Source of the DNA: Sulfolobaceae archaeon
GTDB lineage: Archaea; Thermoproteota; Thermoprotei_A; Sulfolobales; Sulfolobaceae
DNA: 64,000 bases
Direction of reading: 5' to 3'
Assembly (NCBI GenBank): GCA_038893355.1
Contig: JAWARQ010000002.1
Coordinates: forward strand, 32,001 to 96,000
Shown: piece after piece, positions 2,362-61,606 of the stretch
How the letters are laid out: each line of letters starts with the position of its first letter
How positions within the stretch are numbered: position 1 is the first letter of the stretch
Made by a program: the position numbers and the translations under genes
The notes under the pieces: generated by a model
Told to the model about the DNA's origin: nothing
Database searches by the model: none
The model's input: only the letters and a program-made list of their open reading frames with translations

Positions 2362-2700
2362 TTAAAAACCTGCTAGTTTCTCCACTAATCGCGTTAAGAT
2401 TGCTGAATTCTTTTCTGCATCTTTTTCAGCCTGATCTAGTGTCTTCTTAACTTCTTCATCCTTAACTTGACTTAACTTCTGCTTATACTTTACAATCATT
2501 TTTAATTCCTCCTCAAGCATATCTATTACCGCCTCTAATGTCTGTTTGTCTTTAACCTTATCAGAAGCTAACGCCTTATTTTTAAAGCAGTTAAAGTGCA
2601 CAACTTCTTTATTTATTGTATACGTAAAGAGTTCATCCCAATATATTGTGTTTTTACAAATCGCACAACTCCATCTTGTAGCAGCTCTACTCGAGCTCAT
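2362..2700 (-). CDS. Conserved crenarchaeal Zn-binding protein (DUF2175-like)
   Basis: CxxC...HxxC N-terminus followed by coiled coil. Confidence 0.7.
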
Positions 2701-2748
2701 AACAATAAAGATAAATATTGTAGAAAAAAAGATTACGGTGTCATAAAA

Positions 2749-6503: not shown

Positions 6504-8309
6504 ATGAAAATGAAATTCTTATTAGGTTTCAATACACTTGATATTATACAAAGAATAATAATTGCTATCCTTTCATGGTTTGTTATAGCATTTATAAATA
6601 ACTTTATACCACAATTATCTAATTATATAATAATTTTACAAATAATTTCAGCTATTTCAGCATTCTTTTTCCCGTTTATAGTTAGCCCACTGCTAATTGT
6701 AACGTATACTTTCCTTAACATCCTTCAAGAATTTATAAAGAATATAACAATATATAATTTTATAATATTTTTATCGTATTTAATATTTTGGATAATAACA
6801 ATGTTTTATGGTTTAATAAAGTATAATGGTCTTAGACATGTTATAACTACTTATTCACTAGTAGCCTCACAATTAGGTTTTAGCTACTTACTATATAGCG
6901 GGTTAGGATTAAAGACAGATTATAAATTAGGAATTTTCGCCTCATTGCCGTTTTTACCAATATTTATATTATCTTACTTACCTAGTATTCCGCCAATTCG
7001 AAATATTATTGGGATAGTATTAATATTCCTGTCCAGTTATCTCTTCTCGATTAAGGGATACTATAGTATTATTGGTATAGTGCCCATTATCATAACTGTC
7101 TACTTAATAAATCAAAATTATCTATTTATTATACCACCTTTAGTAATTAATATAATATTAATAACCACAGACTTAATAAGCGATCTTAATGCTAAGAAGA
7201 GGAGTATAAATGAACAAAAAATCCATAATGAGAGAATAATAAACATGTTAATGGAAAATATGATGTTATTAGAAAGAGAATTAAAATTAATTTCGGATTT
7301 TAATTTAAAAGAATATCAAAATAAACTTTTAGAGCTCTTAAAACAGAATGCAACCTCAAATAAACTAGAAGAGCTTAAAGATATAGAATTTGAAATAAAT
7401 TCAATAAAGACTGAAATAAATTCAGTAATAAATAACTTTATCTTTGATTTAAATAATCAATATAAGAAAATATTTCTTGAACTACAGAACTTGGGATTTT
7501 CATCACAATTTGAACCGCTCTCAGAAGAAATTAAAATTGAAGACCCATTAACTTTTAAAATATTTTCAAATAATATACAAGTTATAAATACTATCTTTGT
7601 AAGGACAATATCAGAGATAGAGAAGTTTGCCAAAAAAATGGAGATGTTAATTGGAACAGAAATTAGAAAACCCACAATTAATAGGATTTCTGAATTAAAG
7701 GATTATATAGAATATTTAAAGCAACTTTTTTCAAAATCCGAAATTGAAAATTGTATGAATAAAGCCGAATTTATTATTCAAACACTAATTAAGACTAATC
7801 CGAGTTTATCTAAAGAAATTTCATACCTCTTAATACAATACAATACTGAAAGAGTACCAGTAAAGAAATATGAAATCGTATACGAACTATTAGAAAAAGT
7901 TAGAAGATATATAGAAGAGGAGCTAAAGAACGCAGTTATTGATCTTGAAGAGTTGATACATAATTACAAATTGATAAGTTTACAAGAAAACTTAAAACTA
8001 TTACAGCCAGCTATTTCAGAAGGTTTAAAAGGTAGTCATTGTAATGTAATGTCCTCATTAATCTCTTTAATTGATATTATTAACTTTACTCTTGAAGTTA
8101 GAAGGGACAAGGAAAGTATAGTTAATATAATTTCCACTTTATCAAATCTTGATAATATTCTAGAGAATTTAATAAGGGCAGGGAGTTGTATAAATGTGAA
8201 AGAATTTGGACTTTCACAGAAATATGACTGGGTAGTTAAAGATTACTTAAAGTCTAAAGGATACAATTTAACTACAGTAGGTGAAGAAATTTGCCCTTCA
8301 TCATCTTAG
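6504..8309 (+). CDS. Hypothetical protein, N-terminal multi-TM region and long helical/coiled-coil C-terminus
   Basis: 601-aa ORF; hydrophobic first ~220 aa. Confidence 0.7.
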
Positions 8310-22269: not shown

Positions 22270-23193
22270 ATGTTTAAAAGAATAATCTTAATGGCAATAA
22301 TTCCACTTATAATAATTTTGATTTATAGTTATATATTTAATTTAAATTTAATAACAGTAATTGGTGATATTGAACCTAGGATTATTTTCTATTTTATCAT
22401 ATTTTATATAATTTCGAATATTATATTTGCATATAGAGATTCACGAATAGCAAATTCTAAATTGACTACTGCAATAAAAGCTAGATTCTTAGGAAATGCG
22501 TTTTCGTTAATACTACCAGGTTGGAGTGGTGCAGAATTGGCAAGAGCATTAGTTTATTCTAGTGCAGAGAAGATGGATTTTGTTAAATCTTTTTCATACT
22601 CTCTAGTTTTTGGATTTTACGACGTAGTGGTAGGTAGTTTATTATTTTTAATCTTAAGCCTGTTTTATTTTAAATCAATTTTAATAATATTTATAATTTA
22701 CTCTTTAATAAGTATAATAACATGGATTAGTGGATTTGGTTATTTGTATTTCTCAGGAAATAAACTTAATAAATTTGAAAAAATTATATTTGAAAAATTT
22801 AAGATTATAAATAAATTTTCTGGATTATATATTTTATCAAAAAATACTATAAGAGAAGGCTTAAACAAATTTAAAATCATTCAATATATTTTGTTAAGTA
22901 TAATAGCATATATATTACAGTCATTATCGTTCCTATCAATAGTTAAAGCACCATTCTCGATCTTCTTAAACCAGCTTTATTTAATAGCACTTTTAGTACC
23001 TACACCATCTGGTGCTGGAGTAAGAGAAATACTCCTGTCTATTTATCTTACTCCAGAATTAGTAATTCAAGTTATCTTAGTTGAAACTCTTTGTTACCTT
23101 TTAGGATTTGTATTTATAGGAGAAATCGACATAAAAGAACTTAAGAATCAGATAAGAAACATATTTCGAAATGGAAACTTTTCTCAATCCTAA
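22270..23193 (+). CDS. Lysylphosphatidylglycerol synthase TM-domain/flippase-like membrane protein
   Basis: Multi-TM; PTPSGAGVRE motif. Confidence 0.75.
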   Translation: MFKRIILMAIIPLIIILIYSYIFNLNLITVIGDIEPRIIFYFIIFYIISNIIFAYRDSRIANSKLTTAIKARFLGNAFSLILPGWSGAELARALVYSSAEKMDFVKSFSYSLVFGFYDVVVGSLLFLILSLFYFKSILIIFIIYSLISIITWISGFGYLYFSGNKLNKFEKIIFEKFKIINKFSGLYILSKNTIREGLNKFKIIQYILLSIIAYILQSLSFLSIVKAPFSIFLNQLYLIALLVPTPSGAGVREILLSIYLTPELVIQVILVETLCYLLGFVFIGEIDIKELKNQIRNIFRNGNFSQS

Positions 23194-24190
23194 TGCTGAA
23201 ATATCAAAGAAACTACTGGAAAAATTTAGCTCCTTAAAGTCTAACTGTCTTAAAGTAAACTATGACCTTGACTCTTTATTATTTGCATATATAATAAGTA
23301 AAGAATTTAAGGATAGTTTCTACATAACATTTACCTCTAATTGTCCTAATCAACTATTAAAAAAAGATAATAATAAAATTTTAATTATAGAAGGAAATGA
23401 GATAAATATAGGAAGAAACTCCTTCTGTACATTATTACCAATAACTACAGAGAATTTTTTAGGAGTATTAGTTGGTATTATGTATTCTTCTATATTTGAA
23501 AGGAGACAATTTACAGAAGAAGAGAGGAGTATTATAAATAATAGTAAAAATTACGGAATAGTAGTAGAGAATAGTATAAAACTTATTAATTATAAGGAAT
23601 TGCCGGTTTTCTTATCACTAATCCTTACAATAGATCCATATATTGTTGGAGTTAGCGGCAATAAAGCTTCTGCATTGAGTATAATAAGAGAACTAAACAT
23701 ATCAGAAACTGCTAAACTTGAAGAACTAGATGAACCTAAACTAAACTCATTATTATATAGAATAGTTAGTAATATTTTAAAATATAATCCAAAATTTACT
23801 AGAGAAGATTTATTTTCTGAAAGGATATTTTATGAAAGATACGATATTTTAGAGTTGGCAATAGCGTTAGCGTATTCTTTAGATATAATTGGCTCTTCAG
23901 AAATTTTTAAGTTTATATATTATAATAAATATATTGATATTATAATAGATAGATATAGAAAAGATTTGTCTAAAGATTTTGAAATTAAAGAATTTGAAGA
24001 TAAAGGAAGTTATTATGTAGTAAGTAGTGAATTAAGATCTCCTTTACTGCTCTCCCTAATATTAAAGCAAATGGGTAAGATTAAGTCAGAAAAACCTATC
24101 TATATAAAGATTGATAATGAGTTATATACAACAAGGTATTTTATGAAATCGCAGAAGGAGGGTTTAATTAAAATTGAAAGCAAAAATTAA
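23171..24190 (+). CDS. Degenerate RecJ/DHH-related protein (probable RecJdbh/Cdc45 homologue)
   Basis: TIDPYIVGVSG motif of archaeal RecJ-like proteins, no intact DHH motif, directly upstream of Pcc1. Confidence 0.55.
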   Translation: METFLNPNAEISKKLLEKFSSLKSNCLKVNYDLDSLLFAYIISKEFKDSFYITFTSNCPNQLLKKDNNKILIIEGNEINIGRNSFCTLLPITTENFLGVLVGIMYSSIFERRQFTEEERSIINNSKNYGIVVENSIKLINYKELPVFLSLILTIDPYIVGVSGNKASALSIIRELNISETAKLEELDEPKLNSLLYRIVSNILKYNPKFTREDLFSERIFYERYDILELAIALAYSLDIIGSSEIFKFIYYNKYIDIIIDRYRKDLSKDFEIKEFEDKGSYYVVSSELRSPLLLSLILKQMGKIKSEKPIYIKIDNELYTTRYFMKSQKEGLIKIESKN

Positions 24191-27497: not shown

Positions 27498-27588
<91 letters not shown>

Positions 27589-28069: not shown

Positions 28070-29089
28070 ATGCAAGTATTAGAATTCAATGAAAAAAAGG
28101 GTATATTAAAGATTAAGGTAGAGGATGAGGACGATTTGTGGATCTTAAATTACTCATTAGAAAAAGGGGATAGGGTTATAGCTAGGACAACTAGAGACGT
28201 TAGCTTAGGTAATGAAGCTAGAAGGATTCCGATAATTGTAGAGCTAGAGGTAGAAAAAACGGAATTCCAGGCATTTACATCAAGATTAAGGATTCATGGT
28301 GTAATTCTTGATGCGCCAGAAAGATATGGAATAAAAGGATCCCACCATACTATAAACTTAGATATAGGGGACGAAATTGTAATAATTAAAGGAAAATGGA
28401 AATCTCATATATTAAGTAAAATATTTAAAAAAGCTGAAAAAAGGTTTAAAGTTTTAATAGCAATAGTGGATTTTGATGAATTTTTAATAGCAGTGCCTAT
28501 GTTACAAGGAATTAAAATACTAGAAGAGAAGAGCCTTAGGAGCATAACGAAAGAAGAGGATGTAATAGAGAAAAATGCAGAAGAGATCGCTAAAATAATA
28601 AAGGATTATTCTATAAGATTAGAAGTTGATGCGGTAATTATAGCAGGCCCTGGACCTTTTAAAGAGATAGTTAACAAAAAGCTTGATCTAAAAAATAAAA
28701 AGGTTTACTTAGACTCAGTATCATCTGCAACTAGAGCAGGATTAAATGAATTACTAAGAAGGGATATAATCACTCAAGTTGTTAGAGATTATGAGCTCTC
28801 TGAAGCACAAAAAATTTATGAGAAATTTATGGAGGAATTAGCTAAGGGAAGTAAATTAGTTGGATATGGTATAGAAGAAATCAAGAATGCAGCAATTTAC
28901 AATGCAGTTTCTAGTGTTCTAGTATTAGAAGACCTTCTAGGAGAGAACAGGGAAATTATAAATAACATTCTTGACGAAATCGAAAAGAGAAATGGAAGGG
29001 TGTATATAATTCCAAGAGATTCGCCTATATATTATCAAGTGAAGAGCTTAGGTGGAATAATTGCATTACTCAGATTTCCTATATATTAA
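28070..29089 (+). CDS. pelA: Pelota/Dom34 ribosome rescue factor
   Basis: [27 protein letters not shown]. Confidence 0.94.
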
Positions 29090-30148
29090 TTCTTCCGTAA
29101 TTCTTAGCCTTCTAGCATCAGGATGTTCCTCAATCAATACTATTTCATCAATTTTCTCTCTATATTTTTCTATAATATCATTAATATGTTTAACAGAAAC
29201 ATAATAACCGTTACCTTCCCTTCTACTTTCACCATAATCCGAAAGGTCGACATTAGTTTTTACAAAGGCTCTAATAATAGTACCTTCTCCGCTTATCTCT
29301 TCATAGGGTTTAGTGGAGTATCGAGCAGTTCGTAAAAATCTAGTTCTCGTTTCCACTAAATCCTTATAAATCGAACTACAATAATGAACTATAATCTTAT
29401 CCTCACTAAATCTTTTAATTATCTTTTCTGCAGTTTCAGCACTTCCTTTAGCACCAGTGAGACCATGTGCAACTTTAAAACCACGAATGATCATATTTTG
29501 TATGTTTCTTTCATTTATTTCTAATTCATTTAAGTTAACAAATTTAACTTTCTTTGATTTCGCCCATTCAATTAATTTAATTATTTTTTCCTCATCTCCT
29601 GGTATTGCAGGTATTTCGATCCCCACATCGAAAGAATAATTTAATGCCTTCTCTACTGCAACTAAATACTCTTCTTTAATGGGATGAAACCTAATTTCAT
29701 CTAACCCTACCCTCTCTAGAGCCCTTAGAACTTCATGAGTTACATATCTTCCAGTAGTATATAAATGAATATGAAATCCTTCTCCAAATTCTTCCTTTAA
29801 AAGTTTTATTAAATTAGTAACTCTATCTAGCCTTAAAATAGGATCACCACCAGTTATTCCAGCTCCAAGTGCATTCATCCTATATGCTTCATAGATAAAT
29901 TCAATTAAATTATTAATTTTTGCTTCATTTGCAAATATTACATCTTTTCCAAATCTTTCAGAGCTGACTGGGCAATAAAAACAATTATCATCGCACTCAC
30001 CAGTTATAAATACTACTAATTTAGAACCTAATCTACATAATTCACAACCTTTCGGCAAAATCCCGTTATAAAGTCCTATTTCCTTATTTCCTAAGATCGG
30101 CAATTCTATTCTGAATAAAAACTCTGGCTTCTGGATTTTTAACTTCAT
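29066..30148 (-). CDS. Conserved archaeal radical SAM protein
   Basis: CxxxCxxC (CDDNCFYC), TGGDP, LDEIRFH; true start probably somewhat downstream. Confidence 0.85.
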
Positions 30149-33949: not shown

Positions 33950-34978
33950 GTGTTAAGGCTTCAAAATAGGGATTTTATAAGGATTGGGTATGATGTAGAA
34001 TTACCGTTAATAGGTAGTATTGCATTTGGAATTATAGATAGGGGAACAAATATACTACAAGTTAGAGCTAATAGTTATTGTCCTTTAAATTGTATATTCT
34101 GCTCTACAGACGCAGGGCCTAATTCTAGATGGAGAAGATGTGAGTACAGAGTAGATAAAGATCTTTTAGTATCATGGGTTAAGGAAGTTGTTAAGTTTAA
34201 GAAGAAAGATGTAGAGATACATTTAGATAGTGTAGGAGAACCATTAATGTATGATAAATTACCTGACCTAATTCAAGAACTAAAGTCTATACCAAATGTG
34301 AAGGTAGTAAGTATTCAAACTCATGGTTCCTTACTTAGTTATAAGTATGCCGAACGTTTAACTTCAGCAGGATTAGATAGGATAAATCTTAGCATCGATA
34401 CCTTAGATCAAGAAAAGGCGAAGTACTTACAAGGAGCAGAATGGTATAACGTTAAGAGAATAATGGAAATAACTGAATGGATCTTAAGAAATACTAATAC
34501 TGATATACTACTAGCACCAGTATTATTGCATGGAATTAATGATACTGATGTGGAGGATGTAATAAAGTGGGGTAAAAGTATAGGAGTAGGTAAGAGATTT
34601 CCCGGATTTGGTATTCAAGTATTTATGAAACATAAGCATGGCAGAATTCCTAAAGATGTAAAAATCATTAATATGAAAAAATTCGAAAAAATTCTTTTAT
34701 TATGGGAGAAGAAATATAATGTAAAATTAAGATTAAGTGAGGAGGATTTTGGTATCAAAAAGCTTCCTATGATACCCACAATTTTTAAGGAAGGAGAAAA
34801 GGTGAAAGTTAAGATAGTTGCACCAGGTTGGTTAAAAAATGAGTGGTTAGCGGTCCCAGTTGGTAAAGAAGAGAGTAGAGTCATAACCGTTATTGGCAAA
34901 GAGTTAGATATAGAATCTAAAATTAATGTTAGAATAATTAAAAATAAACATAATATATATTTAGCCCGACCCTTATAA
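33950..34978 (+). CDS. Archaeal radical SAM protein with C-terminal TRAM-like domain
   Basis: FGIIDRGTN, CPLNCIFC, GEP. Confidence 0.85.
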   Translation: MLRLQNRDFIRIGYDVELPLIGSIAFGIIDRGTNILQVRANSYCPLNCIFCSTDAGPNSRWRRCEYRVDKDLLVSWVKEVVKFKKKDVEIHLDSVGEPLMYDKLPDLIQELKSIPNVKVVSIQTHGSLLSYKYAERLTSAGLDRINLSIDTLDQEKAKYLQGAEWYNVKRIMEITEWILRNTNTDILLAPVLLHGINDTDVEDVIKWGKSIGVGKRFPGFGIQVFMKHKHGRIPKDVKIINMKKFEKILLLWEKKYNVKLRLSEEDFGIKKLPMIPTIFKEGEKVKVKIVAPGWLKNEWLAVPVGKEESRVITVIGKELDIESKINVRIIKNKHNIYLARPL

Positions 34979-36378: not shown

Positions 36379-36924
36379 GTGAGCTACTATATTTTAGAAA
36401 AATTGAAGAATGAACTATTATTATCAGATGCAGAAATAGAATTTGCAATAAATAAGGCAAAAGGCATATTATTAGGATATGCAATGGAGTATAGGGCATG
36501 TAAAATTTTAGAAAGATATAATTTTAAAAATATAAAGTATGTAAACTTACCAACACATGATATAGAGGCAGAGAAAGAAGGGGAGAAATATTATATTGAA
36601 GTAAAGGCGACTAGCAAATCACCAACCAGAGAATATACTGCACATAAGGTCGTAATGATTGCATTATTAGATGGTACACACTTAACACTTTTAATGAAAC
36701 CTAAAGAGGAACTTTACCTAACTAGACAAATATTAAGTGAACCTAAAAGAGTATTATATGATTTCTTTAAAACTTTAAGAACAAGAGGGGAAGTAGAAGC
36801 TATAAGGTTCATAGAGAACCCTATACACTATAACATACTTAAAAGTTATCAGCGAGTTCTATTTACTTATAAAAACCTACTCACTAAAAAGATAATTGAA
36901 TTACTTAATATTTCTTCTTATTGA
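36379..36924 (+). CDS. PD-(D/E)XK nuclease-family protein
   Basis: E...HDIEA...YIEVKA catalytic pattern. Confidence 0.7.
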   Translation: MSYYILEKLKNELLLSDAEIEFAINKAKGILLGYAMEYRACKILERYNFKNIKYVNLPTHDIEAEKEGEKYYIEVKATSKSPTREYTAHKVVMIALLDGTHLTLLMKPKEELYLTRQILSEPKRVLYDFFKTLRTRGEVEAIRFIENPIHYNILKSYQRVLFTYKNLLTKKIIELLNISSY

Positions 36925-37471: not shown

Positions 37472-38227
37472 TTATTCTAATATCATCTTAAATATATCTT
37501 CTAACGGCATAACTCTTATCCCTTTAGATGAGAAAAAGTTATTTATGTTTCTTAAATCTCGTTCTAATAATTCCTTCCAATTTTGGTGATCTATTGTTAT
37601 AGACTGACTAACATCAATGATGTAGGGCTTAGAATTATGAACTAACACATTGTACTCACTTAAATCACCATGAACCAGTTTTGCTACCTTTACCATTCTC
37701 TTTATTTGCTCGATAAGATCCATGTATAACTCTTGAGTTATTAAGTCTTCATTAACGTCTTTAAGTAAAGGTGCGCTAACTCCGTCCTCGCCTATAAATT
37801 CCATTACTAATACGTTCTCGAGGACTAAATAGGGCCTGGGTACTCTGACATCAGCGTCATAAAGTCTCTTTAAATTCTTAAACTCCTTTTTAGCCCACGT
37901 TGAGATTAAATGCCTAGTACTCTTCGGCCTAACCTCCATAAATCTAGGATCACCCATCATGTACTTCTTTACTGCCCTCTTATGTGAAGCAGTAGAAACA
38001 TAGTATACCTTTATAGCATACCAATTTTCTTTATCATCCATAGCTGGATAAACCTTTGCCTCCTTCCCTGAAGAAATTGCTCCAAAAATCTTAACAATAT
38101 TTAACCTCCTTGATATCTCAAATAAAATATTTTCAGTTCTTGGATCAATTGTTGAATCGACAACCTTTATAAGATCTTGATCCTTCCACCTCTTCTCGGC
38201 CTTTCTCTTACGTTCTGGAAACTTCAA
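37472..38227 (-). CDS. rio1: RIO1 kinase
   Basis: SSGKEAKVY, HGDLSEYN, IDVSQ. Confidence 0.94.
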   Translation of the reverse strand: MKFPERKRKAEKRWKDQDLIKVVDSTIDPRTENILFEISRRLNIVKIFGAISSGKEAKVYPAMDDKENWYAIKVYYVSTASHKRAVKKYMMGDPRFMEVRPKSTRHLISTWAKKEFKNLKRLYDADVRVPRPYLVLENVLVMEFIGEDGVSAPLLKDVNEDLITQELYMDLIEQIKRMVKVAKLVHGDLSEYNVLVHNSKPYIIDVSQSITIDHQNWKELLERDLRNINNFFSSKGIRVMPLEDIFKMILE

Positions 38228-38246
38228 ATAACCTTTCCCACCATTC

Positions 38247-38573
38247 TCAACTCTTACTTAAGGTTTCTAAAACATCCTTATCTACAACCTTTTCTTCTAT
38301 AAGTTTCTTTATCTCATCAGTACCATATTTATGAACTATATCGCACTTATTTTGTTGAAATTCCCATACTGCAACGAGAACAACATCACCTTCCCTTAAC
38401 CATACTCTTTTCCTCATCTTACCTGGTATTCTACCCATTCTTTCCTTACCATCAGCACAAATAACAATAGCATGATCTGCACCAACTAGCTTTTTAACTA
38501 CACATATCTGCTCGCCTTCGGCAGGCTTTAATACTTCTTTTGTATTTCGAATTGGCTCCTTTATTTTAGGCAA
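38247..38573 (-). CDS. eif1a: Translation initiation factor aIF-1A
   Basis: [11 protein letters not shown]. Confidence 0.93.
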
Positions 38574-38645
38574 ATGATTCCCTATGTTTATACTATCATA
38601 GCTTAATATAAAAGAGTTTATACTACACTTTCACTTTTATAGAAA

Positions 38646-38719
38646 CAGTCTGGCGTTCAGTAATAAACCTTTTGGTCAAACCTCAAGCATAATCTCAACT
38701 AAGATTGCCACGTGGGCCC
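38646..38719 (+). repeat. Left 74-bp inverted repeat
   Basis: CAGTCTGGCGTTCAGTAATAAAC...CCACGTGGGCCC. Confidence 0.85.
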
Positions 38720-38727
38720 TATATAGG

Positions 38728-38858
38728 AGATAGTGTCACCACTAAGCTACAAAAATCCCTTTTACCCTATAACATTTCATGAAAAATTACATTTTACACC
38801 TCTACTCTATAAAGGGAATTTTCATACAATAATTTATAGCTTAATAGTGACACTATCT
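38728..38858. mobile_element. MITE-like element, 131 bp
   Basis: 26-bp terminal inverted repeats match 23/26 (AGATAGTGTCAC...GTGACACTATCT); no ORF. Confidence 0.7.
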
Positions 38859-38990
38859 GATTTTTTCTAATTAATTATAAATTATAATTAATATGTATAT
38901 ACTAATAAAATTTTAATTTAATATAAATTAATATGTATCTCTTCCCATTATCATTGCTCTTATGAAAATTCTTATACATCTATAATTCAC

Positions 38991-40133
38991 TTAACTCTTC
39001 TTTTCCTTTAAATATCCAAATAAGTAAGTTATGCCTGATATAAGGACAAAGATAGAGTCAAAATAAAATGGTAATGTATAGCTAGCATCATATAAATATC
39101 CAGAAATAGCATAGCCTATAATGCTACCCAAGTCTTGAGAAGCAGAAATAATACCAACTGCAGAACCCTTAATACTCACTCTTCTACCAATATACGCGGG
39201 CCAAAGTGTGTACAGTGCATTAATAAGAATTGCATTAATGAAAGCGATTAATATAATAACAAATATATTTTTAGAAAGATAAAATAATATTAATATTGAA
39301 GATATTATCAAATTGGCACCTATAATTAAAAATTCATGTAAATTTTTACCATAATTTCCCCATAACTGTGATGCTAAAATATTTCCGATACCAATCATTG
39401 TATAAGTTATACCCACATAACTTGCATTAAGATCTAAAATATCTACTACGAATAATGGAAAAACTATTTGAAATATGCCAAGTCCAATATATTCAAAAAA
39501 GTTACCTAATAAAACTATTAAAATTGATATATTTTTTAAATTTTGAAAATTTATATTATTATTCATCATGTTAATATTATAAACTTTTATATAATTTTTT
39601 AAAGAAAATAAAATTATTAAAGAAAATAATAAAATAATATTTACAAATAGAAAGAAAATTTTATGATTGAAGGTATATAATAGGGATCCAATTAAAGGTC
39701 CTATAGTAGTTGAGATGTAAGAAAGACTATTATATAATCCAAAAGCTTTCCTATATTCATCTTCTTTACTTATAGTCATGATATAAGCTATTAATGAAGG
39801 TCTAAGGAACGAAGTACCAATACCTTCTATCAATCTAACGAGAAATAGATACTGCCAAATCTCTATGAAGTCATAGATGATAAATGCAATTAAATAAAGG
39901 ATAAGTCCTAATAATAATATATTATACTTATTCTTAATATCGAATAGAAAGCCTGTTATCGGTTGAATAATTATCCTAACTATTACATAATTAACTACTA
40001 AAAGTCCTATAGTATAAGTAGGTGCCCCCAGATTTTGGGCGTATAGTGGGAAAATGATAAGAAATGAGAAAAACACAGTATTCACAAATATACTTACAAT
40101 AGAGAGCATTAATAGTACATGAAGTTTATACAA
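38991..40133 (-). CDS. MFS transporter (probable exporter)
   Basis: About 12 TM helices; G.LFD motif-A-like segment, RLIEGIG, IGPLIG. Confidence 0.88.
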   Translation of the reverse strand: MYKLHVLLMLSIVSIFVNTVFFSFLIIFPLYAQNLGAPTYTIGLLVVNYVIVRIIIQPITGFLFDIKNKYNILLLGLILYLIAFIIYDFIEIWQYLFLVRLIEGIGTSFLRPSLIAYIMTISKEDEYRKAFGLYNSLSYISTTIGPLIGSLLYTFNHKIFFLFVNIILLFSLIILFSLKNYIKVYNINMMNNNINFQNLKNISILIVLLGNFFEYIGLGIFQIVFPLFVVDILDLNASYVGITYTMIGIGNILASQLWGNYGKNLHEFLIIGANLIISSILILFYLSKNIFVIILIAFINAILINALYTLWPAYIGRRVSIKGSAVGIISASQDLGSIIGYAISGYLYDASYTLPFYFDSIFVLISGITYLFGYLKEKKS

Positions 40134-40136
40134 TTT

Positions 40137-41201
40137 CTAATCCCTTAGTGTTTTTGGACAAAATGGGTCTGGAGCGTAAATATCATTTAAGAAAAGGTAT
40201 GCAAATACCCTTGAACCACCTCTGCATTTCTCTACGAATTCACAACTTATACAAGGTTCTTTGAACCAATCATTCTGTCTAAACATATTAAGAGCAACAG
40301 AATTTTTCCATATTTTATCTATAGAATTTTCCCTTACATTATCAAATTTAATAACCCCTTCATAAAGTAATGTGTCTGCAGACTCCACTAAAGGTAAAAC
40401 GTAACCTTCAGGATTTATTATCATACCATAATATCCCCATATGTTAGGCTTAACTTTAAAGTAATCTTTAGCACGATTAATAATTTTAAAACTAATATGC
40501 CTATTATATTCTGCTTCTAAATCAGAAACAATTTCATTAATCTGTATTATTTCTTTAAATTTTGGAATAATCTTAGGATTCTTATAAGCGAAGCCTGCCG
40601 GCAAAACTGGCTGAATAATTAAAGCGTCTAGCTTCCTATATTTTGCATCTAGTTCAATTATTAATTTTAAAATTTTCTTTAGTTTCTCATATAAATTAGC
40701 ATAAATTGACAAATGAAATATTGCAGCCTTATGTTCTCCTTCTTTTTCTTTAAATAATATAATTTTTTTGTAAAAATATTCTAAATTTCTGAATATATTA
40801 TAATCATCACTATTGGCATATCTATATACATGTAGGCTTAATTGCATTAAATCTAGGTAATCTCTAATAATTTTAATGCCATTTTCATTTAATAATAATC
40901 CATTAGAGGAAAGAGCAGTAATCGTATTAAACGATTTAGCATATTTAATTAATTCAATTACACCCTCATATTTTAGAGGCTCTCCTCCAGTAAATATCAA
41001 AATTTTAGTACCTAGCTCAACCACTTGCTTAATTATAGATTTCCATTCCTCTATACTTAACTTTTTTCTATCCATATGAGTTGGGTTAAAACAATATGGG
41101 CATCTGAGATTACAGTCATAAGTTAATTGTAATTCTACAATATGTGGTATCTTTGGATCTAAAGATAATAATTTACTTTGATTTTGTAAAAAATCAAGCA
41201 T
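40137..41201 (-). CDS. Radical SAM/SPASM enzyme, PqqE-like, putative peptide maturase
   Basis: ELQLTYDCNLRCPYCFNP, FTGGEP, INPEGYVLP, CxxCxxxxxC...PDPFC. Confidence 0.88.
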   Translation of the reverse strand: MLDFLQNQSKLLSLDPKIPHIVELQLTYDCNLRCPYCFNPTHMDRKKLSIEEWKSIIKQVVELGTKILIFTGGEPLKYEGVIELIKYAKSFNTITALSSNGLLLNENGIKIIRDYLDLMQLSLHVYRYANSDDYNIFRNLEYFYKKIILFKEKEGEHKAAIFHLSIYANLYEKLKKILKLIIELDAKYRKLDALIIQPVLPAGFAYKNPKIIPKFKEIIQINEIVSDLEAEYNRHISFKIINRAKDYFKVKPNIWGYYGMIINPEGYVLPLVESADTLLYEGVIKFDNVRENSIDKIWKNSVALNMFRQNDWFKEPCISCEFVEKCRGGSRVFAYLFLNDIYAPDPFCPKTLRD

Positions 41202-41213
41202 GTTGTAAACCTT

Positions 41214-41366
41214 TTACAATTTTTCCAACGATATCGCTATAACTCCTATATATAATGAAGAACTGATAGGATTGTAATCTACTATATCTTTGTTTCTACT
41301 TAATTCTTTTTTAATCTCATAGACTTTATTTATAGTTATGAATTTAGTAGATAGGTTTCCTTGCAT
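41214..41366 (-). CDS. 50-aa putative RiPP precursor peptide
   Basis: ATG 41366 preceded by GGGGGA and an A-rich/TTTAAG promoter-like element; stop 12 nt before the rSAM start. Confidence 0.6.
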   Translation of the reverse strand: MQGNLSTKFITINKVYEIKKELSRNKDIVDYNPISSSLYIGVIAISLEKL

Positions 41367-41390
41367 TTTTATCCCCCAGATTATCTTTAA

Positions 41391-41411
41391 CTTAAACGGT
41401 TTTTTTTTTTT
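41391..41411 (-). promoter_or_regulatory. Putative BRE/TATA of the peptide operon
   Basis: A12-CCG-TTTAAG ending 24 nt upstream of ATG 41366. Confidence 0.45.
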
Positions 41412-41530
41412 AACTCTCAATAATTCTAAAAAGTTATCATAAATAACAGTTATTATGTCAATAAAATTTAAACACTTGTCATTAATACTAATATCATATA
41501 TAAACAATTTTTAATAAACCTTAAGAATTA

Positions 41531-41895
41531 CATTCCCGTAGACCCCAAATTCATCACCTCGAAAATAATTCTAGAGAGTTAAAAATTGGATAGAATAATT
41601 TAACTGAATATTCTTGAATCGTAGTAATATTACCTTACAAAACAAAATCAAGATAATTAGTAGTAAGCGGAAGTCCTCTTTGCTTGTTGTTCCCCTTGAA
41701 GAGTAGGTAAAGCGTGTAAATTAACATTGCCAAAGCGAAGATGAACAAGCGAACTAACCAACTCCTTGATGAGGTAAAGATGAGAAATGATTTGATTAGC
41801 TTGTAAGAAGTCTCTATTGGTGTCCTAACCTTGTCATACCAATTTATTACAATACTCCTATGCACGTCTAGGTTCGTCCCCTTGGCCAAGTACTC
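41531..41895 (-). pseudogene. ISH3-family transposase 3' remnant with frameshifts
   Basis: YDKVRTPIETSYKLIKSFLIFTSSR..RLFIF; frameshifted continuations KEDFRLLL and NSLELFSR*; 5' part absent. Confidence 0.75.
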
Positions 41896-42000
41896 TATAT
41901 AGGAAGTTGATTAGGATTGTATTGAGTGTTTGATATAATAATAAGCCTTACGAGCCTAAGTGATTGAGGAACCCTCCCCTAATCGCCACGTGGGCCCTTT

Positions 42001-42074
42001 AGACCCACGTGGTAATGTTAGCTTACACTATGCTTGAAATATGACCGAAAGATTTATTACTAAACGCCAGGCTG
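42001..42074 (-). repeat. Right 74-bp inverted repeat
   Basis: AGACCCACGTGG...GATTTATTACTAAACGCCAGGCTG. Confidence 0.85.
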
Positions 42075-42258
42075 CATAGAAATATCCAAACAACTTAATT
42101 GCTAATTTTTCGAAATTCTTTAGTATTAGTATATAGATAACAAGGGCTAATTAAAATTATAAATTATATTATATAATTAAAAAGATAAAAAATTATTTTA
42201 TTATTTTTAATTAAATTATGAATACATCTAAAAATTGAAATTTAATTTTAAAACTTTA

Positions 42259-42344
42259 CGCCGGGGGCGGGATTTGAACCCGCGCGGGGGAAACCCCCAG
42301 CGGCTTAGCAGGCCGCCGCCCTGGCCAGACTAGGCGACCCCGGC
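42259..42344 (-). tRNA. tRNA-Ser(GCT)
   Basis: GCCGGGG acceptor stem, GCGGC-CTGCTAA-GCCGC anticodon arm, long variable arm, GGTTCAAATCC. Confidence 0.94.
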
Positions 42345-42400
42345 AATATATCATATTTATTTACTCCTTAAAAACTCTTATTCACTTAGAATTGATTTCT

Positions 42401-42467
42401 TGTCATCTTCACAGAGGCGAGGGCTATCCATCTTCACCTTAAAGAAGCAAGCTTCCTGTCCTCAACC
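42401..42467. mobile_element. Possible degenerate IS200/IS605-family end
   Basis: GC-richer patch CAGAGGCGAGGGCTATCCATCTTCACCTTAAAGAAGCAAGCTTCC resembling remembered Sulfolobales IS605 ends; not verified. Confidence 0.35.
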
Positions 42468-42902
42468 CATATAGAACATTCCGATTTTGTAAGGATAAAT
42501 ATAAACTTACTAAACATCCCAAAATTTGGTTTAGTTTGCTAGGTGAGAAGTAAAGATATTTTATTCTAATCTTAACTTCTAGATGCTAAGGGTCAAGGAA
42601 CCAATGCTAAGAAATTCTATAAAACGCTCTTGAATATTCTTAAGAGCTCATAATTTTGATGAGAGAAAAACAATACCCAGAAGAGAACTTTACTTTATAA
42701 CGCGCTTAGAACTATAGTCATACATTAAAGAGATCTCTATACTATTCTATACTATTCTCTTGTTATAAATTTACCGTTGACGAAAAATTATATAATTACT
42801 ATACCTTAAGCTGTATTTTATCACTAGTTATTTGTAATTTTATAACAAATGCATGTTTAAATGCAATAAGATTTTTTATATTAGATATACAAAGCCCTAG
42901 TA

Positions 42903-47139: not shown

Positions 47140-47786
47140 TTTTCTTGTAAAATTTTCTTACCATGATACATTACATTATTTGGTAAGAATGAATTTAATC
47201 GAAATACTCTATTTTCTATAGTTAAAAAACCAAATTTTTCCATGATCTTTCTTAACTCCCATGGAAAATAAAACCTATAAAATCTATATAGTTTTCTGCC
47301 ATTAAAATTACTAATTAACCATACATTCCTCCTAAATAGAAATTTAAACTGAACAAGCCATACTGTTACTATTATCTCTCCTCCTACTTTTAAAACCCTA
47401 TACATTTCTGATATAGCAAGTGAAGGGTCTGGAAGATGATGAAGCGTAGCTAGACAAAGTATTGTAGAAATACTATTATCTCTAAATGGAAGAAATTCCA
47501 TATCTGCCTGAACAAGATTTTCACATCCCCTCTTTTTAGATTCTATTAATTGTTTTTCCGCAATGTCTAAACCTATTACATACCCCTTTAATTTACTACA
47601 ATTATACCCTGCACCGCATCCAATATCTACTACTGGGTCTTTTTTAACTAAATCTAAAAATTTAGAAGGTTTTCTTCTATGAATAATGAATTCGTAAGCT
47701 TCTTTAACCCTCTCTTTAATTAAGTTCTTTTGCGAGATAGGGTCCAAAGTCACGATAGCCCCTCTTTCTATAGTATTCTTTAACAC
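47136..47786 (-). CDS. Class I SAM methyltransferase (Trm9-like candidate)
   Basis: DIGCGAG, LPFRD, LATLHHL, RVLKVGG..TVW; start uncertain, overlaps elp3. Confidence 0.8.
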
Positions 47787-49131
47787 CTACCCCAGAAAGT
47801 ACCAGTATTCTTTTTGCATCAAATTCTTCCCTCGATATCCTTTCAGCCTCTCTAAGTAACAAAGTACCGTAACCCTTATGTTGGTAAGCCATTTCATCCC
47901 ACTCGCCTACAGGAACTTCTATTCCATAAATATGGAGCTCTCTTATTATCGTAGTTTTCTCGTCTATCTCATTTCTATGAGCCTTTTTAGACGGTACTCT
48001 TAATCTTAAGTAGCCCACTAAAATATCTTGTTCGTCTTCTAGAGATAGGAAAATTTCTATACCTTCACTTGCTTCGTATATTTCCTTCTTTAAACTAATA
48101 TTTTTAGGAGTAATATTTCTATGTAACCACATATAACCTACTTCCCTATATCTAATCTCATTAATTTTTATGCCCTTTTGTAGTGCCCTCTGCTCTACTA
48201 GTTCCCTTAAATTCCCCTTAATATTCCCAGCTAATATCACATCAGCTGGAATATCCCTCTGAATCCTCATTACCCTAACCCATTTTGGTATGTATCTATA
48301 CATTTCAGAAATTAATTCAACTAAAGTCTCTGTATCATATGGCTTATAAAGTCCTTTTTTCCAAAGATATACTAAAGGGGCAGTCTCAACTACTAGGGTA
48401 GGATAAATCTTAAGCATGTCTGGTCTAAAATCTGGATTTCTAAAAATCTCCTTAAATGCTTCTAAGTCTTTGTCTGGATCAGAGCCTGGTAATCCTAGCA
48501 TTACGTGATAAACTACCTTAAATCCCGAATCCTTTAAAATTCTAGTAGAATCTATAGAATCCTTTACAGTATGACCTCTATTCGTTATTTTTAATATTTC
48601 ATCATATATCGTCTGTACTCCTAATTCAACCTTAGTAACTCCCAAATTTAACATAATATCAGCCTGAGGTTCTTTAGCCCAATCTGGTTTAGTCTCTACG
48701 GTTATTCCGACTGCTCTATGAACTGCTTTTTCATTTCTCGTTTTAGCATCTTCAAGATAAACGAATTTTGGCTTTTCTTTACTCGGATATCTATTCATGG
48801 CTTCTAATGCCATGGTAACGAACCATTCTTGATAATCTAAAGGCATCGCAGTAAAAGTACCACCCATTATAATTAATTCAATTTTACTAGGATTATGGCC
48901 TAGATAGTAGTACTGAGAAAGCCTAGAATATACTTGATAATAAGGATCAAAATTATTCTCAATTGCTCTCATTAATGCAGGTTCTCTGCCATAATAACTT
49001 TGGGGCGTATTATATTCTACTCCACCAGGGCAAAAAATACATTTACCATGAGGACATCTACTAGGACTTGTCATAATTGCTACTATACTTACTCCAGCCA
49101 TCATCCTTGTTAACTTTCTTATAACCTTCAT
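47716..49131 (-). CDS. elp3: Elp3 tRNA U34 carboxymethyltransferase (rSAM + KAT)
   Basis: [35 protein letters not shown]. Confidence 0.95.
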
Positions 49132-57660: not shown

Positions 57661-58611
57661 ATGAGGTTTATGCCAAATAAGGAGGGTAGTAGTATAAGAA
57701 GGATCCAAAAAATTAAGGGTGGTAGCTATATTATAAGCATACCACCCGACTGGATAAGAAGAAATGGTTTAGATGTGAAAAGTGAAGTTGAAGTAATAGA
57801 AACCTCTGAGGGTCTTATAATCAGACCTATTAAACCTAAAGAGGCTGTTAAAGAAATAAAGTTCACGAATATCGAGACTGTTGAATACTTAATAACTGCA
57901 TACTACATGCAAGGTGCTTCAAGAATAATTATTAGGGGAGAGAGGATTATTAGACCAGAGGACAAATTAAGGCTGAAAAACCTTCAACTTGAATTACCAG
58001 GGCTTGAGGTTGAAGAGGAAGGATTTGATAGTATTATATTTAGAGTAAATTACTCTTTAGACACTGATATAAAGTCTTCAGTATCTAATTTTGCTACAAG
58101 AATTGGCGACCTTATAAGTGATTTAAAAAAGGCGATAGAGAGTTCTGATAGGGCAATGGCTGAAGATATTAAATTAAGAGTAGATGAATTAATGAAAAGG
58201 TATAGAACGATAATTAGACAAATAGCGTTAATAATACAATTAAATTATTTTGTACTACCATTCAAAGATATTGTGCTTTTTGCAATAGCTATGAGGGATA
58301 TGGGGAGAATAATACATCATATAAAAACATGTGCAATGATTTTATCAAAATGCGAAAAAATATCTAATGAAATAGTAAAGGAGATAGAAGAAATAGCAGA
58401 GTTATTTAGGAAATCATTTAAAGTATTTGATGTAGAAGACCTTTCATTAATTCCGGAAATTAGAAGAAAAACAAAGGAATTGTATTCTATAAATGAAAAA
58501 ATAATAAGGAATAATCATTGTTCAAGTGAAATTGCAAAAGAATTAAATAGAATGCTCAGTTACATTATTGCATTAATGGATGATGGAGTTCATAAGAGTG
58601 TGCGAATTTAA
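57661..58611 (+). CDS. AbrB/PhoU-domain regulator
   Basis: RRIQKIKGGSYIISIP N-terminus; PhoU-like helical bundles. Confidence 0.82.
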   Translation: MRFMPNKEGSSIRRIQKIKGGSYIISIPPDWIRRNGLDVKSEVEVIETSEGLIIRPIKPKEAVKEIKFTNIETVEYLITAYYMQGASRIIIRGERIIRPEDKLRLKNLQLELPGLEVEEEGFDSIIFRVNYSLDTDIKSSVSNFATRIGDLISDLKKAIESSDRAMAEDIKLRVDELMKRYRTIIRQIALIIQLNYFVLPFKDIVLFAIAMRDMGRIIHHIKTCAMILSKCEKISNEIVKEIEEIAELFRKSFKVFDVEDLSLIPEIRRKTKELYSINEKIIRNNHCSSEIAKELNRMLSYIIALMDDGVHKSVRI

Positions 58612-61144: not shown

Positions 61145-61606
61145 ATGACCATTATAGTTAGAAAGACGCATAAAAAGGGTGAAAAAAGAATATGGATAAG
61201 AATTGGGGAAAGTCCACCAGTAATAAAAGAGGGTAAAATTAAGGATGGAGCATTCTTCGTAATAGTTGGAGATGATGAAGGTGAAAAGAAAATTCGATTG
61301 ACAGATCAAGAGGCTTTAGATATCGCGAACAGGATAATTATAGCATATAGAAAGCATATAAGGCAATATATGGAGCTAGATAAAATGGCTTATGCCGAAT
61401 ATAAGCAAAGAGTTAAAGAGGAGGAAAAGATTTCAGAAAAAGAGATTGAACTTGAATTATTAGAGTACCTCATTAAGAATAAGGGGGAGGTTAATATAGA
61501 AGATTTAAGAAAAGATTTAGGCGTGAAACATGCAGATGAAGTATTTCGTCTTGAAAGAAAAGGGATAGTAAAAATAATTGAAAATAAAGTTAGATTACTT
61601 ATTTAA
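61145..61606 (+). CDS. Hypothetical protein, possible C-terminal winged helix
   Basis: 153-aa ORF; L..L...G.V....L...LERKG pattern. Confidence 0.65.
   Translation: MTIIVRKTHKKGEKRIWIRIGESPPVIKEGKIKDGAFFVIVGDDEGEKKIRLTDQEALDIANRIIIAYRKHIRQYMELDKMAYAEYKQRVKEEEKISEKEIELELLEYLIKNKGEVNIEDLRKDLGVKHADEVFRLERKGIVKIIENKVRLLI

What the first reader, a model, noticed from the sequence alone, without database searches (positions are those of the whole stretch)
38638..42082. Hidden 3.4-kb cargo element: long inverted repeats plus target-site-like duplication around a biosynthetic operon
Seen: 74-bp arms at 38646-38719 and 42001-42074 are inverted copies (59/74, no gaps), both with CAG at the outer end. 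They are immediately flanked by TATAGAAA and CATAGAAA (7/8 direct repeat). No intact transposase or integrase lies inside, and the cargo is visibly more AT-rich than the flanks. Inference: a non-autonomous transposon or relic composite element that delivered the peptide-rSAM-MFS operon between aIF-1A and tRNA-Ser, mobilised in trans.
Basis: partly seen in the sequence, partly recalled or inferred. Interest (0 to 1): 0.75.

Follow-up and report, generated by a model that had tools for sequence, protein, structure and literature searches.

The report
Fossil transposon carrying a peptide-maturase cassette
A 3.4-kb stretch in an archaeal chromosome is bracketed by inverted repeats and a duplicated target site, the scars of a jumping-gene insertion, and holds an otherwise unknown three-gene set for modifying and exporting a small peptide; it looks immobile today and is a modest, not a spectacular, find.

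Summary
The 74-nt arms (38646-38719 and 42001-42074) match at 59/74 positions, both start with CAG, and they are the only long inverted repeat in the 64-kb window. They abut TATAGAAA and CATAGAAA (7/8; empirical chance about 0.001).

One correction: the interior is not free of transposase. Positions 41536-41897 are a frameshifted 3' fragment (residues 230-340 of 340) of an ISH3-family transposase gene. This fragment has its own insertion-sequence (IS) terminus at 41536, so it is nested debris and not the partner of the arms.

The arms match nothing else:
- no other copy in the window;
- no archaeal copy in 185,579 species genomes (exact 20-base pattern only);
- nothing in the plasmid or phage collections.

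The cargo is intact and nearly orphan:
- a 50-aa peptide with no relative;
- a PqqE-like radical-SAM enzyme, best non-self hit 38% identity;
- an MFS (major facilitator) exporter with one 73% relative.

Its GC content is at the low end of the window's genes but is not an outlier.

Best reading: a fossil, single-copy, non-autonomous transposon of the "mobile insertion cassette" kind, inserted between aIF-1A and tRNA-Ser. Partly supported; moderate interest.

The parts
38638..38645 (.). left copy of the target-site-like direct repeat, TATAGAAA
   Evidence: 7/8 with 42075-42082; empirical P about 0.001
38646..38719 (+). left terminal inverted repeat (arm), starts with CAGT, GC 0.46
38704..38723 (+). 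inner 20 nt of the left arm; repeated directly (18/20) at 41982-42001
   Evidence: (family D7, 90%)
38728..38858 (.). 131-nt hairpin just inside the left arm (26-nt stems 38728-38753 / 38833-38858, 88%); role unknown
   Evidence: pair I4; no other copy in the window
38991..40133 (-). MFS transporter gene, intact (380-aa longest ORF; the database form P0128 has 372 aa and would start at about 40109)
   Evidence: (PF07690, E 2.7e-40)
40137..41201 (-). radical-SAM enzyme gene with a reduced SPASM-type C-terminal domain, PqqE-like, intact (354 aa)
   Evidence: (TIGR02109: 168.6 bits, cut-off 381.35)
41214..41366 (-). 50-aa peptide gene (presumed substrate of the rSAM enzyme); the longest ORF, from TTG at 41507, would give 97 aa
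   Evidence: the only database entry is the 50-aa form, P0161
41385..41396 (-). TATA-like box about 25 nt upstream of the peptide ATG (my inference; no tool for archaeal promoters)
   Evidence: read
41536..41897 (-). nested 3' fragment of an ISH3-family IS: transposase residues 230-340 of 340, two frameshifts, stop at 41554-41556, own IS terminus at 41536
41982..42016 (.). near-palindrome at the inner edge of the right arm (a direct copy of the left arm's inner end, TTTA, then the right arm's own inner end)
42001..42074 (-). right terminal inverted repeat (arm), starts with CAGC on the minus strand, GC 0.41
42075..42082 (.). right copy of the target-site-like direct repeat, CATAGAAA
38247..38573 (-). 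left neighbour: aIF-1A gene; its start lies 72 nt from the left arm
   Evidence: (PF01176, E 3.3e-23)
42258..42345 (-). right neighbour: tRNA-Ser(GCT); its 3' end lies 183 nt from the right arm

Best explanation
The segment 38646-42074 (3,429 bp) is a fossil of one transposition-type insertion into the roughly 250-bp spacer between the aIF-1A promoter region and the 3' side of tRNA-Ser(GCT).

Mechanism (inferred): a DDE-type transposase, not encoded here, bound the two 74-nt terminal inverted repeats. It joined their CAG ends to a staggered 8-bp cut at (T/C)ATAGAAA, and gap repair produced the flanking direct repeat.

The element is non-autonomous. It carries a self-contained passenger cassette read on the minus strand:
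- a 50-aa peptide gene;
- a PqqE-like radical-SAM maturase gene;
- an MFS exporter gene.
It also carries a nested, decayed ISH3-family IS fragment that is unrelated to the arms. In kind it is a mobile insertion cassette, or an IS with passenger genes that has lost its transposase.

It is single-copy and probably immobile now: the arms are 80% alike and no partner was found.

Shown: the repeats, the direct repeat, the gene content, the foreign IS fragment with its own end, and the orphan status of the cargo.

Inferred: that transposition made the repeats, that the cargo travelled between the arms, and that the cassette makes and exports a modified peptide.
For: Repeats and duplication:
- The inverted repeat is 71-74 nt at 80-82% identity, E 2.3e-14, and is the only long inverted repeat in 64 kb.
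- Its boundary is sharp at CAG on both sides, directly abutted by a 7/8 eight-base direct repeat with empirical chance 0.001.
- No 4- or 5-base direct repeat is present: 2/4 and 1/5.

No working mobility gene:
- There is no working transposase or integrase between the arms.
- 0 of 12 short open frames next to the arms hit any NCBIfam model at E<=1.
- 0 of 53 other ORFs of at least 150 aa in the window are transposases or integrases; they are core genes such as the shikimate pathway, AspRS, RIO1 and aconitase.

Cargo is absent from other genomes:
- rSAM: best non-self hit is 38% identity, among 165 hits with E<=1e-3 from 2,467 scored candidates.
- Peptide: 1 hit, itself, in 1.84 billion representatives.
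- MFS: one 73% relative on a 1,512-bp contig, all others 36% or less.

Cargo is intact:
- Open frames of 354 and 380 codons occur where a stop is expected every 11.5 codons (chance 1e-14 and 1e-15).

Excision leaving one repeat copy would give a 247-bp spacer.

The kind is described: mobile insertion cassettes and ISs with passenger genes (passages of PMC3129680 and PMC2266710).
Against: - Only one copy exists in what I could search, so mobility is not shown.
- No autonomous partner with the same ends was found.
- The window's own genome is not in the scanned collection (no self hit), so its other 2-3 Mb stayed unseen.
- The empty site in relatives was not examined.
- Cargo composition is within the host range (GC3 about 1 sd below the mean), so composition gives no independent sign of foreign origin.
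- A 20-nt direct repeat (18/20) at the inner edges of both arms fits a later entry of the interior into a small palindromic element at least as well.
- The arms have GC 0.41-0.46 while the interior has 0.26, which could mean different origins.
- Mobile insertion cassettes are rare compared with MITEs (miniature inverted-repeat transposable elements).
Confidence: 0.5

Rival explanations
1. Arms first, cargo later. A small palindromic MITE-like element, or an ordinary IS, inserted at (T/C)ATAGAAA and made the 8-bp duplication. The two arms back to back would be about 150 bp. The 3.26-kb interior (operon plus ISH3 debris) entered its centre afterwards, by site-specific or break-repair integration. 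The arms therefore did not deliver the operon.
For: - A 20-nt direct repeat (18/20) at 38704-38723 and 41982-42001 brackets the interior exactly at the inner ends of the arms.
- The motif CCACGTGGG(Y)C occurs 3 times in 64 kb, all at these edges. Chance expectation is 0.11, and 0 of 100 shuffles reach 3.
- The arms are much more GC-rich than the interior (0.41-0.46 vs 0.26).
- The nested IS fragment shows the interior has taken up insertions.
- MITEs are common in Sulfolobus genomes: SM1-SM4 at 25-44 copies, stated in passages of PMC10969869.
Against: - A 20-bp duplication is not what DDE transposases make.
- No integrase or remnant of one lies inside.
- The core CCACGTGG is self-complementary, so a fold-back duplication at the right arm alone can create the same 20-nt repeat.
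- A 3.3-kb insert landing inside a 150-bp target is unlikely a priori unless the palindrome is a hotspot (my reasoning).
- No other copy of such a MITE exists in the window or in the scanned genomes.
Confidence: 0.25
2. The arms are two independent copies of a scattered repeat, or the outer ends of two decayed IS copies (a relic composite transposon), that happen to flank a resident operon.
For: The left arm alone is followed by TATAGGAG, a 6/8 match to its left flank TATAGAAA (read). In this AT-rich DNA, 6/8 or better has a chance of 0.009 per register, so the match is weak.
Against: - The 7/8 repeat lies at the outer ends of the pair, not around each arm.
- The right arm has no duplication of its own (read).
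- There are no further copies in the window.
- There is no second IS body. The only IS fragment has a different terminus.
- The operon has no relatives in other genomes, so it is not a resident lineage gene set.
Confidence: 0.07
3. The arms are the ends of the ISH3-family IS whose transposase fragment lies inside. On this reading the whole thing is one ISH3 element that swallowed the operon.
For: - The fragment lies next to the right arm, in the same orientation as the cargo.
- The arms begin with CAGT and CAGC, close to the family's CRGT end consensus (Table 1 passage of PMC2266710).
Against: - The fragment runs to the natural stop of the transposase and then, 7 nt later (positions 41546-41536), to a terminus motif. 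This motif aligns with the right end of ISSis6 on plasmid pYN01 (NC_012624), after which similarity stops.
- ISSis6 has the matching inverted repeat at its other end and a 4-bp duplication, AATA.
- The arms show no similarity to either ISSis6 end beyond shuffles: 5, 130, 290 and 85 of 300 shuffles reach the observed scores.
- ISH3 elements make 4-5-bp duplications (PMC2266710). Here 4- and 5-mers do not match.
- No N-terminal transposase remnant lies next to the right arm.
Confidence: 0.03
4. This is not a mobile element. The inverted copies arose by a local rearrangement (inverted duplication during repair), or are conserved spacer DNA, and the direct repeat is chance.
For: It is single-copy and no cognate transposase was found. 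The flanking octamer is AT-rich and TATA-like.
Against: A sharp repeat boundary and an adjoining 7/8 repeat (chance 0.001) are not expected from an inverted duplication. The genes between the arms are orphans.
Confidence: 0.1

Closest known systems
Mobile insertion cassettes (MIC231 of Bacillus cereus) and ISs with passenger genes ('transporter ISs')
   Same: IS-type terminal inverted repeats and a target duplication bracket non-transposition genes, with no transposase of their own. This is the definition given in passages of PMC3129680 and, for the IS231 passenger genes, PMC2266710.
   Different: MIC231 shares its ends with a known autonomous IS231 that moves it, and it occurs in several copies. 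Here no partner IS, no second copy and no mobility are known. The arms are far longer (74 nt). The host is an archaeon.
MITEs of Sulfolobus (SM1-SM4) and the pTC1 MITE
   Same: Non-autonomous elements with inverted ends and flanking direct repeats in Sulfolobaceae. They can decay until immobile (passages of PMC10969869 and PMC4390865).
   Different: MITEs are short (the pTC1 MITE is 142 bp), non-coding and multicopy. This element is 3.4 kb, carries three intact genes and is single-copy. I could not compare the sequences of SM1-SM4, because they are not held in any tool here.
ISH3-family insertion sequences (e.g. ISSis6 on pYN01, NC_012624)
   Same: The nested fragment at 41536-41897 belongs here: NF033541 with E 5e-13; 65-91% identity to 7 proteins of Saccharolobus, Sulfurisphaera and metagenomes (3 of them 340-342-aa transposases, 4 of 175-195 aa); and a terminus homologous to that of ISSis6.
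   Different: The arms are not ISH3 ends, and the duplication length (8) is not that of the family (4-5).
PqqE / PQQ biosynthesis and other radical-SAM/SPASM peptide maturase clusters
   Same: A small peptide gene lies directly upstream of a radical-SAM enzyme. The enzyme aligns end to end with PqqE (PDB 6c8v, E 1.9e-24, residues 24-349) and is followed by an exporter.
   Different: - The score is far below the PqqE cut-off (168.6 vs 381.35 bits).
- The two cysteines that precede the CxxC block in PqqE are absent (alignment).
- No PqqB, PqqC or PqqD genes are present.
- The peptide has no relative.
- The closest enzyme is 38% identical.

Membership tests
Non-autonomous TIR transposon / mobile insertion cassette | terminal inverted repeats at both ends | tested here: met
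   59/74, E 2.3e-14, the only long inverted pair in the window
Non-autonomous TIR transposon / mobile insertion cassette | target-site duplication directly abutting the ends | tested here: met
   TATAGAAA / CATAGAAA, 7/8, empirical chance 0.001
Non-autonomous TIR transposon / mobile insertion cassette | no transposase of its own; passenger genes inside | tested here: met
   Only MFS, rSAM, a small peptide and an unrelated ISH3 pseudogene fragment lie inside. 0 of 12 short frames beside the arms hit a family.
Non-autonomous TIR transposon / mobile insertion cassette | an autonomous element with the same ends that can supply transposase | tested here: inconclusive
   None in the window. None in 185,579 species genomes for an exact 20-base end pattern: 2 bacterial chance hits and no self hit, so the host genome itself was not searched. 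None in the plasmid or phage collections. ISfinder is not available.
Non-autonomous TIR transposon / mobile insertion cassette | more than one copy, or an empty site in relatives (evidence of movement) | not tested
ISH3 family IS (as the identity of the arms) | ends CRGT | tested here: met
   CAGT (left) and CAGC (right) against the consensus CRGT (passage of PMC2266710). Only four bases, so this is weak.
ISH3 family IS (as the identity of the arms) | 4-5-bp target duplication | tested here: not met
   4-mers match 2/4 and 5-mers 1/5, while the 8-mer matches 7/8.
ISH3 family IS (as the identity of the arms) | the ends bracket the ISH3 transposase gene, with the right end just after its stop | tested here: not met
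   The fragment has its own terminus at 41536, homologous to the ISSis6 right end. The arms are unlike either ISSis6 end.
Composite transposon | two copies of an IS flanking the cargo | tested here: not met
   There is one truncated IS fragment only. The arms are 74 nt with no coding remnant beside them.
Integrase-type integrative element at a tRNA gene | tyrosine/serine recombinase gene and direct att repeats that include part of the tRNA | tested here: not met
   No recombinase inside. The right arm lies 183 nt from the tRNA. No direct repeat involves the tRNA.
PqqE (TIGR02109), as the identity of the rSAM enzyme | score above the curated equivalog cut-off | tested here: not met
   168.6 bits vs 381.35. 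It is PqqE-like in fold and order, not PqqE.
Radical-SAM/SPASM peptide maturase cluster (RiPP-type) | CxxxCxxC radical-SAM core plus a C-terminal auxiliary-cluster domain, next to a small peptide gene | tested here: met
   PF04055 E 2.1e-17 and PF13186 E 1.2e-06. The peptide gene ends 13 nt before the rSAM start. Enzyme-peptide pairing itself was not tested.

The most novel reading that the evidence does not exclude
The arms are the ends of a so far undescribed archaeal transposon family: 74-nt inverted repeats with a CACGTG-containing inner palindrome and an 8-bp duplication. Its transposase, encoded elsewhere, moves a complete, otherwise unknown peptide / radical-SAM / exporter cassette as a unit. 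That would make this an archaeal mobile insertion cassette for a natural-product gene cluster.
Probability: 0.3. Interest if true: 0.6.

Novelty: new member of a known kind. Interest (0 to 1): 0.35.

Why it matters
If the reading is right, this shows how a thermoacidophile-type archaeon acquired a small natural-product-like gene set: as the passenger of a transposon dropped into a core, housekeeping part of the chromosome. Passenger-carrying non-autonomous transposons are described mainly in bacteria. An archaeal case with an unknown end family would widen that picture and would give a handle (the arm sequence) for finding the partner transposase.

The cargo is also of some interest on its own. 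It consists of a PqqE-like enzyme with a reduced auxiliary-cluster domain, an orphan 50-aa peptide and a dedicated exporter, with a 38% relative of the enzyme and a 73% relative of the exporter as the only kin found.

The value is limited because the element is single-copy, decayed and without demonstrated movement.

Tried and rejected
1. Arms as the ends of the ISH3 IS inside. This was my first idea. It was rejected by the fragment's own terminus and the comparison with ISSis6.
2. An N-terminal transposase remnant beside the right arm. tblastn of 7 transposase relatives found only residues 230-340. A four-residue LINF match that I read by eye is chance.
3. Extension of the inverted repeat beyond 74 nt. 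MAFFT continues it after a 15-nt gap, but a local alignment of the inner extensions is not above shuffles (299 of 300 reach it), so I do not claim it.
4. Arm pattern scan of genome contigs. It returned 2 loci, Rosenbergiella and an Oxalobacteraceae MAG (metagenome-assembled genome), matching only the 22-nt pattern. These are chance hits. There was no self hit, so the host genome is not in that collection. Copies differing in any of the 20 fixed bases would be missed.
5. Plasmid and phage collections. There was no DNA match to the right-arm region or to the whole element. The transposase relative P0006 hit one plasmid record (ISSis6, 48%) and no phage.
6. Rfam. Only the tRNA appears in 38000-42800 at E<=1, plus two sub-threshold overlaps of the tRNA. 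The whole window holds two tRNAs.
7. Fold of the 97-aa ORF. Mean pLDDT was 57.3 and pTM 0.42. That is too poor, so no fold search was made.
8. ESM Atlas for the 50-aa peptide. No usable hit.
9. NCBIfam on 12 short open frames beside the arms. 0 hits at E<=1.
10. The listing of cluster members for six window proteins could not be made because the database is switched off. The host's taxon therefore rests only on the Sulfolobaceae relatives of the IS fragment.
11. Strand folding of the arm regions failed on a length limit and was not repeated.
12. A review on archaeal ISs that I looked up by a recalled PMC id is not held.
13. Additional file 9 of PMC2266710 (alignments of ISH3 ends; a PDF) was not seen and could bear on the end comparison.
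14. Literature. Searches for ISC1359/ISH3, for ISC1439/ISC1217/ISC1058, for 'mobile insertion cassette' plus archaea, and for Sulfolobus MITEs turned up no description of this element. I read only passages of PMC2266710, PMC13343696, PMC3129680, PMC10969869 and PMC4390865.

Full report
The two arms, 38646-38719 and 42001-42074, are inverted copies with 59 of 74 positions identical and no gaps. Both start with CAG at the outer end. blastn of the arm regions against the whole window finds only this pair (71 nt, 81.7%, E 2.3e-14). A 27-nt degenerate arm pattern occurs twice in the window and never twice in 100 shuffles. The only other inverted pair of 44 nt or more in 64 kb is a 44-nt, 70% AT-rich one.

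The repeat boundary is sharp, and directly outside it lie TATAGAAA (38638-38645) and CATAGAAA (42075-42082), a 7/8 match. Random 8-mer pairs from this window reach 7/8 at a frequency of 0.0010, and 57 of 60,500 pairs do so at the same spacing. Shorter candidate duplications do not match (2/4 and 1/5).

**What lies between the arms.** All of it is on the minus strand, listed here from the right arm inward:
- About 100 nt of non-coding sequence comes first. It includes a near-palindrome at 41982-42016.
- Next is a fragment of an ISH3-family IS at 41536-41897.
- Next is a small ORF. The longest form has 97 aa, but the only database entry is the 50-aa form starting at the ATG at 41366.
- Next is a 354-aa radical-SAM enzyme at 40137-41201.
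- Next is an MFS transporter at 38991-40133.
- Last come 270 nt of non-coding DNA with a 131-nt hairpin at 38728-38858.

So 'no intact transposase or integrase' is correct, but a transposase remnant is present.

**The remnant is not the partner of the arms.**
- It matches the last 62 positions of the ISH3 transposase model (NF033541, E 5e-13).
- It also matches residues 230-340 of 340-aa transposases. Seven relatives were found, at 65-91% identity, named from Saccharolobus islandicus, Sulfurisphaera ohwakuensis, Sulfolobus sp. S-194 and metagenomes.
- Reading together shows two compensating frameshifts and the natural stop at 41554-41556.
- A motif follows 7 nt after the stop (…GGGGTCTACGG on the minus strand, ending at 41536). 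It aligns with the right terminus of ISSis6, an intact ISH3-like IS on plasmid pYN01 (NC_012624). Similarity ends after it.
- ISSis6 has the matching inverted repeat at its left end and a 4-bp duplication, AATA. This agrees with the family description: ends CRGT and duplications of 4-5 bp (passages of PMC2266710).
- The arms show no similarity to either ISSis6 end beyond shuffles.

The fragment is therefore a 5'-truncated IS with its own end, nested inside the arm-bounded segment.

**The arms themselves remain unidentified.**
- They have no further copy in the window.
- A scan of one genome from each of 185,579 species for an exact 20-base end pattern gave two bacterial chance hits, limited to the pattern itself, and no archaeal hit.
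- That scan also found no self match. The window's own genome is therefore not in that collection, and the rest of it was never searched.
- The plasmid and phage collections hold nothing similar to the element.
- Rfam finds no RNA family in the arms.
- None of 12 short open frames beside the arms hits a protein family.
- None of the 53 other ORFs of at least 150 aa in the window is a transposase or integrase. They are core genes: the shikimate pathway, ribosomal protein L10e, diphthamide synthesis, AspRS, KH/RIO1/aIF-1A, aconitase and beta-oxidation.

**The cargo is intact and almost without relatives.**
- The radical-SAM enzyme has the CxxxCxxC core and a C-terminal SPASM-type domain.
- It aligns end to end with PqqE (PDB 6c8v, E 1.9e-24).
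- It scores far below the PqqE cut-off (168.6 vs 381.35 bits), and it lacks the two cysteines that precede the CxxC block in PqqE (alignment).
- Among 5.8 billion clustered proteins, its best non-self hit is 38% identical and the next hits are 30% or less.
- The peptide has no relative among 1.84 billion representatives. The Atlas gave nothing.
- The MFS protein has one 73% relative on a 1.5-kb metagenome contig and otherwise nothing above 36%.
- The identical rSAM and MFS proteins were each seen on 4 contigs.
- In this composition a stop is expected every 11.5 codons, so open frames of 354 and 380 codons (chance about 1e-14 and 1e-15) show that the genes are maintained.

A peptide gene followed by a radical-SAM maturase and an exporter is the usual layout of a modified-peptide cluster. 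That function is my inference. The TATA-like box at 41385-41396 is also read by eye.

**Composition.** The interior is AT-rich (GC 0.258, window 0.318). The two genes nevertheless sit within the window's own spread. Their GC values are 0.256 and 0.279, against a mean of 0.321 (sd 0.035). Their GC3 values are 0.194 and 0.192, against 0.228 (sd 0.035). Five other ORFs are equally AT-rich. Composition therefore does not argue for or against foreign origin. The arms are GC-richer (0.46 and 0.41).

**Best reading (about 0.5).** This is one transposition-type insertion of an element bounded by 74-nt inverted repeats. An unknown DDE-type transposase made it, cutting the target with an 8-bp stagger, in the roughly 250-bp spacer between aIF-1A and tRNA-Ser. 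The spacer would be 247 bp after notional excision.
- The element is non-autonomous and carries the cassette as a passenger.
- In kind it is a mobile insertion cassette, or an IS with passenger genes that lost its transposase (definitions in passages of PMC3129680 and PMC2266710).
- The 20% divergence of the arms, the single mismatch in the duplication and the decayed nested IS fit an old, now immobile copy.

**Main rival (about 0.25).** The arms were first a small palindromic element and the interior came later. Its best support is a 20-nt direct repeat (18/20) at 38704-38723 and 41982-42001, placed exactly at the inner edges of the arms. CCACGTGGG(Y)C occurs three times in the window, all at these edges. 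The core CCACGTGG is self-complementary, so a fold-back duplication at the right arm explains the repeat equally well. I leave this unresolved.

**Minor rivals.** These are independent repeat copies or a composite relic, the ISH3 element itself, and a non-mobile rearrangement. Each is contradicted by specific results listed under the rivals.

**What stayed open.**
- The empty site in relatives was not examined.
- The rest of the host genome was not searched.
- ISfinder could not be consulted.
- The flanks of the two distant cargo relatives were not read.
- The listing of cluster members could not be run, so the Sulfolobaceae placement rests on the IS fragment's relatives only.
- In print, my four literature searches found no description of such an element in archaea. 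I read passages only, and most of the older Sulfolobus IS/MITE papers are not in the library.

**Verdict.** This is a new member of a known kind, of moderate interest (0.35).

Noticed in passing
window 27499-27588 (+): A 90-nt tRNA. Rfam scores it as tRNA (58.7 bits), but ARAGORN cannot name the anticodon. It probably has an archaeal intron.
   Followed up: no
window 41982-42016: A near-palindrome at the inner edge of the right arm. The motif CCACGTGGG(Y)C occurs 3 times in 64 kb, all at the inner edges of the arms. It could be a protein-binding site or a fold-back scar.
   Followed up: partly
window 38728-38858: A 131-nt hairpin with 26-nt stems (88%) between the left arm and the end of the MFS gene. 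It has no other copy in the window. It could be a nested miniature element or a structural feature.
   Followed up: partly
window 41400-41411: A run of 12 T (A12 on the coding strand) just upstream of the 50-aa peptide gene, inside the alternative 97-aa reading frame. It is a possible slippage-prone tract.
   Followed up: no
window 29066-30148 (-), 33950-34978 (+), 47716-49131 (-): Three further radical-SAM ORFs in the same window, the last with a Radical_SAM_C domain. They are unrelated to the cargo enzyme as far as Pfam shows.
   Followed up: no
window 2596-3903 (+), 6504-8309 (+), 23171-24190 (+), 36379-36924 (+), 61145-61606 (+): ORFs of 153-601 aa with no Pfam match at E<=1e-5. The ORF at 6504-8309 is as AT-rich (GC 0.256) as the cargo.
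   Followed up: no
window 57661-58611 (+): A 316-aa ORF whose only Pfam match is an N-terminal MazE/AbrB-type domain.
   Followed up: no
L001 (NC_012624.1) 1049-2273 of the locus: The ISSis6 copy on pYN01 has ends CGGTAGACCC… and …GGGTCTACCG and a 4-bp duplication, AATA. The duplication sits within a palindromic target, CCCTAATA / AATAAGGG.
   Followed up: partly
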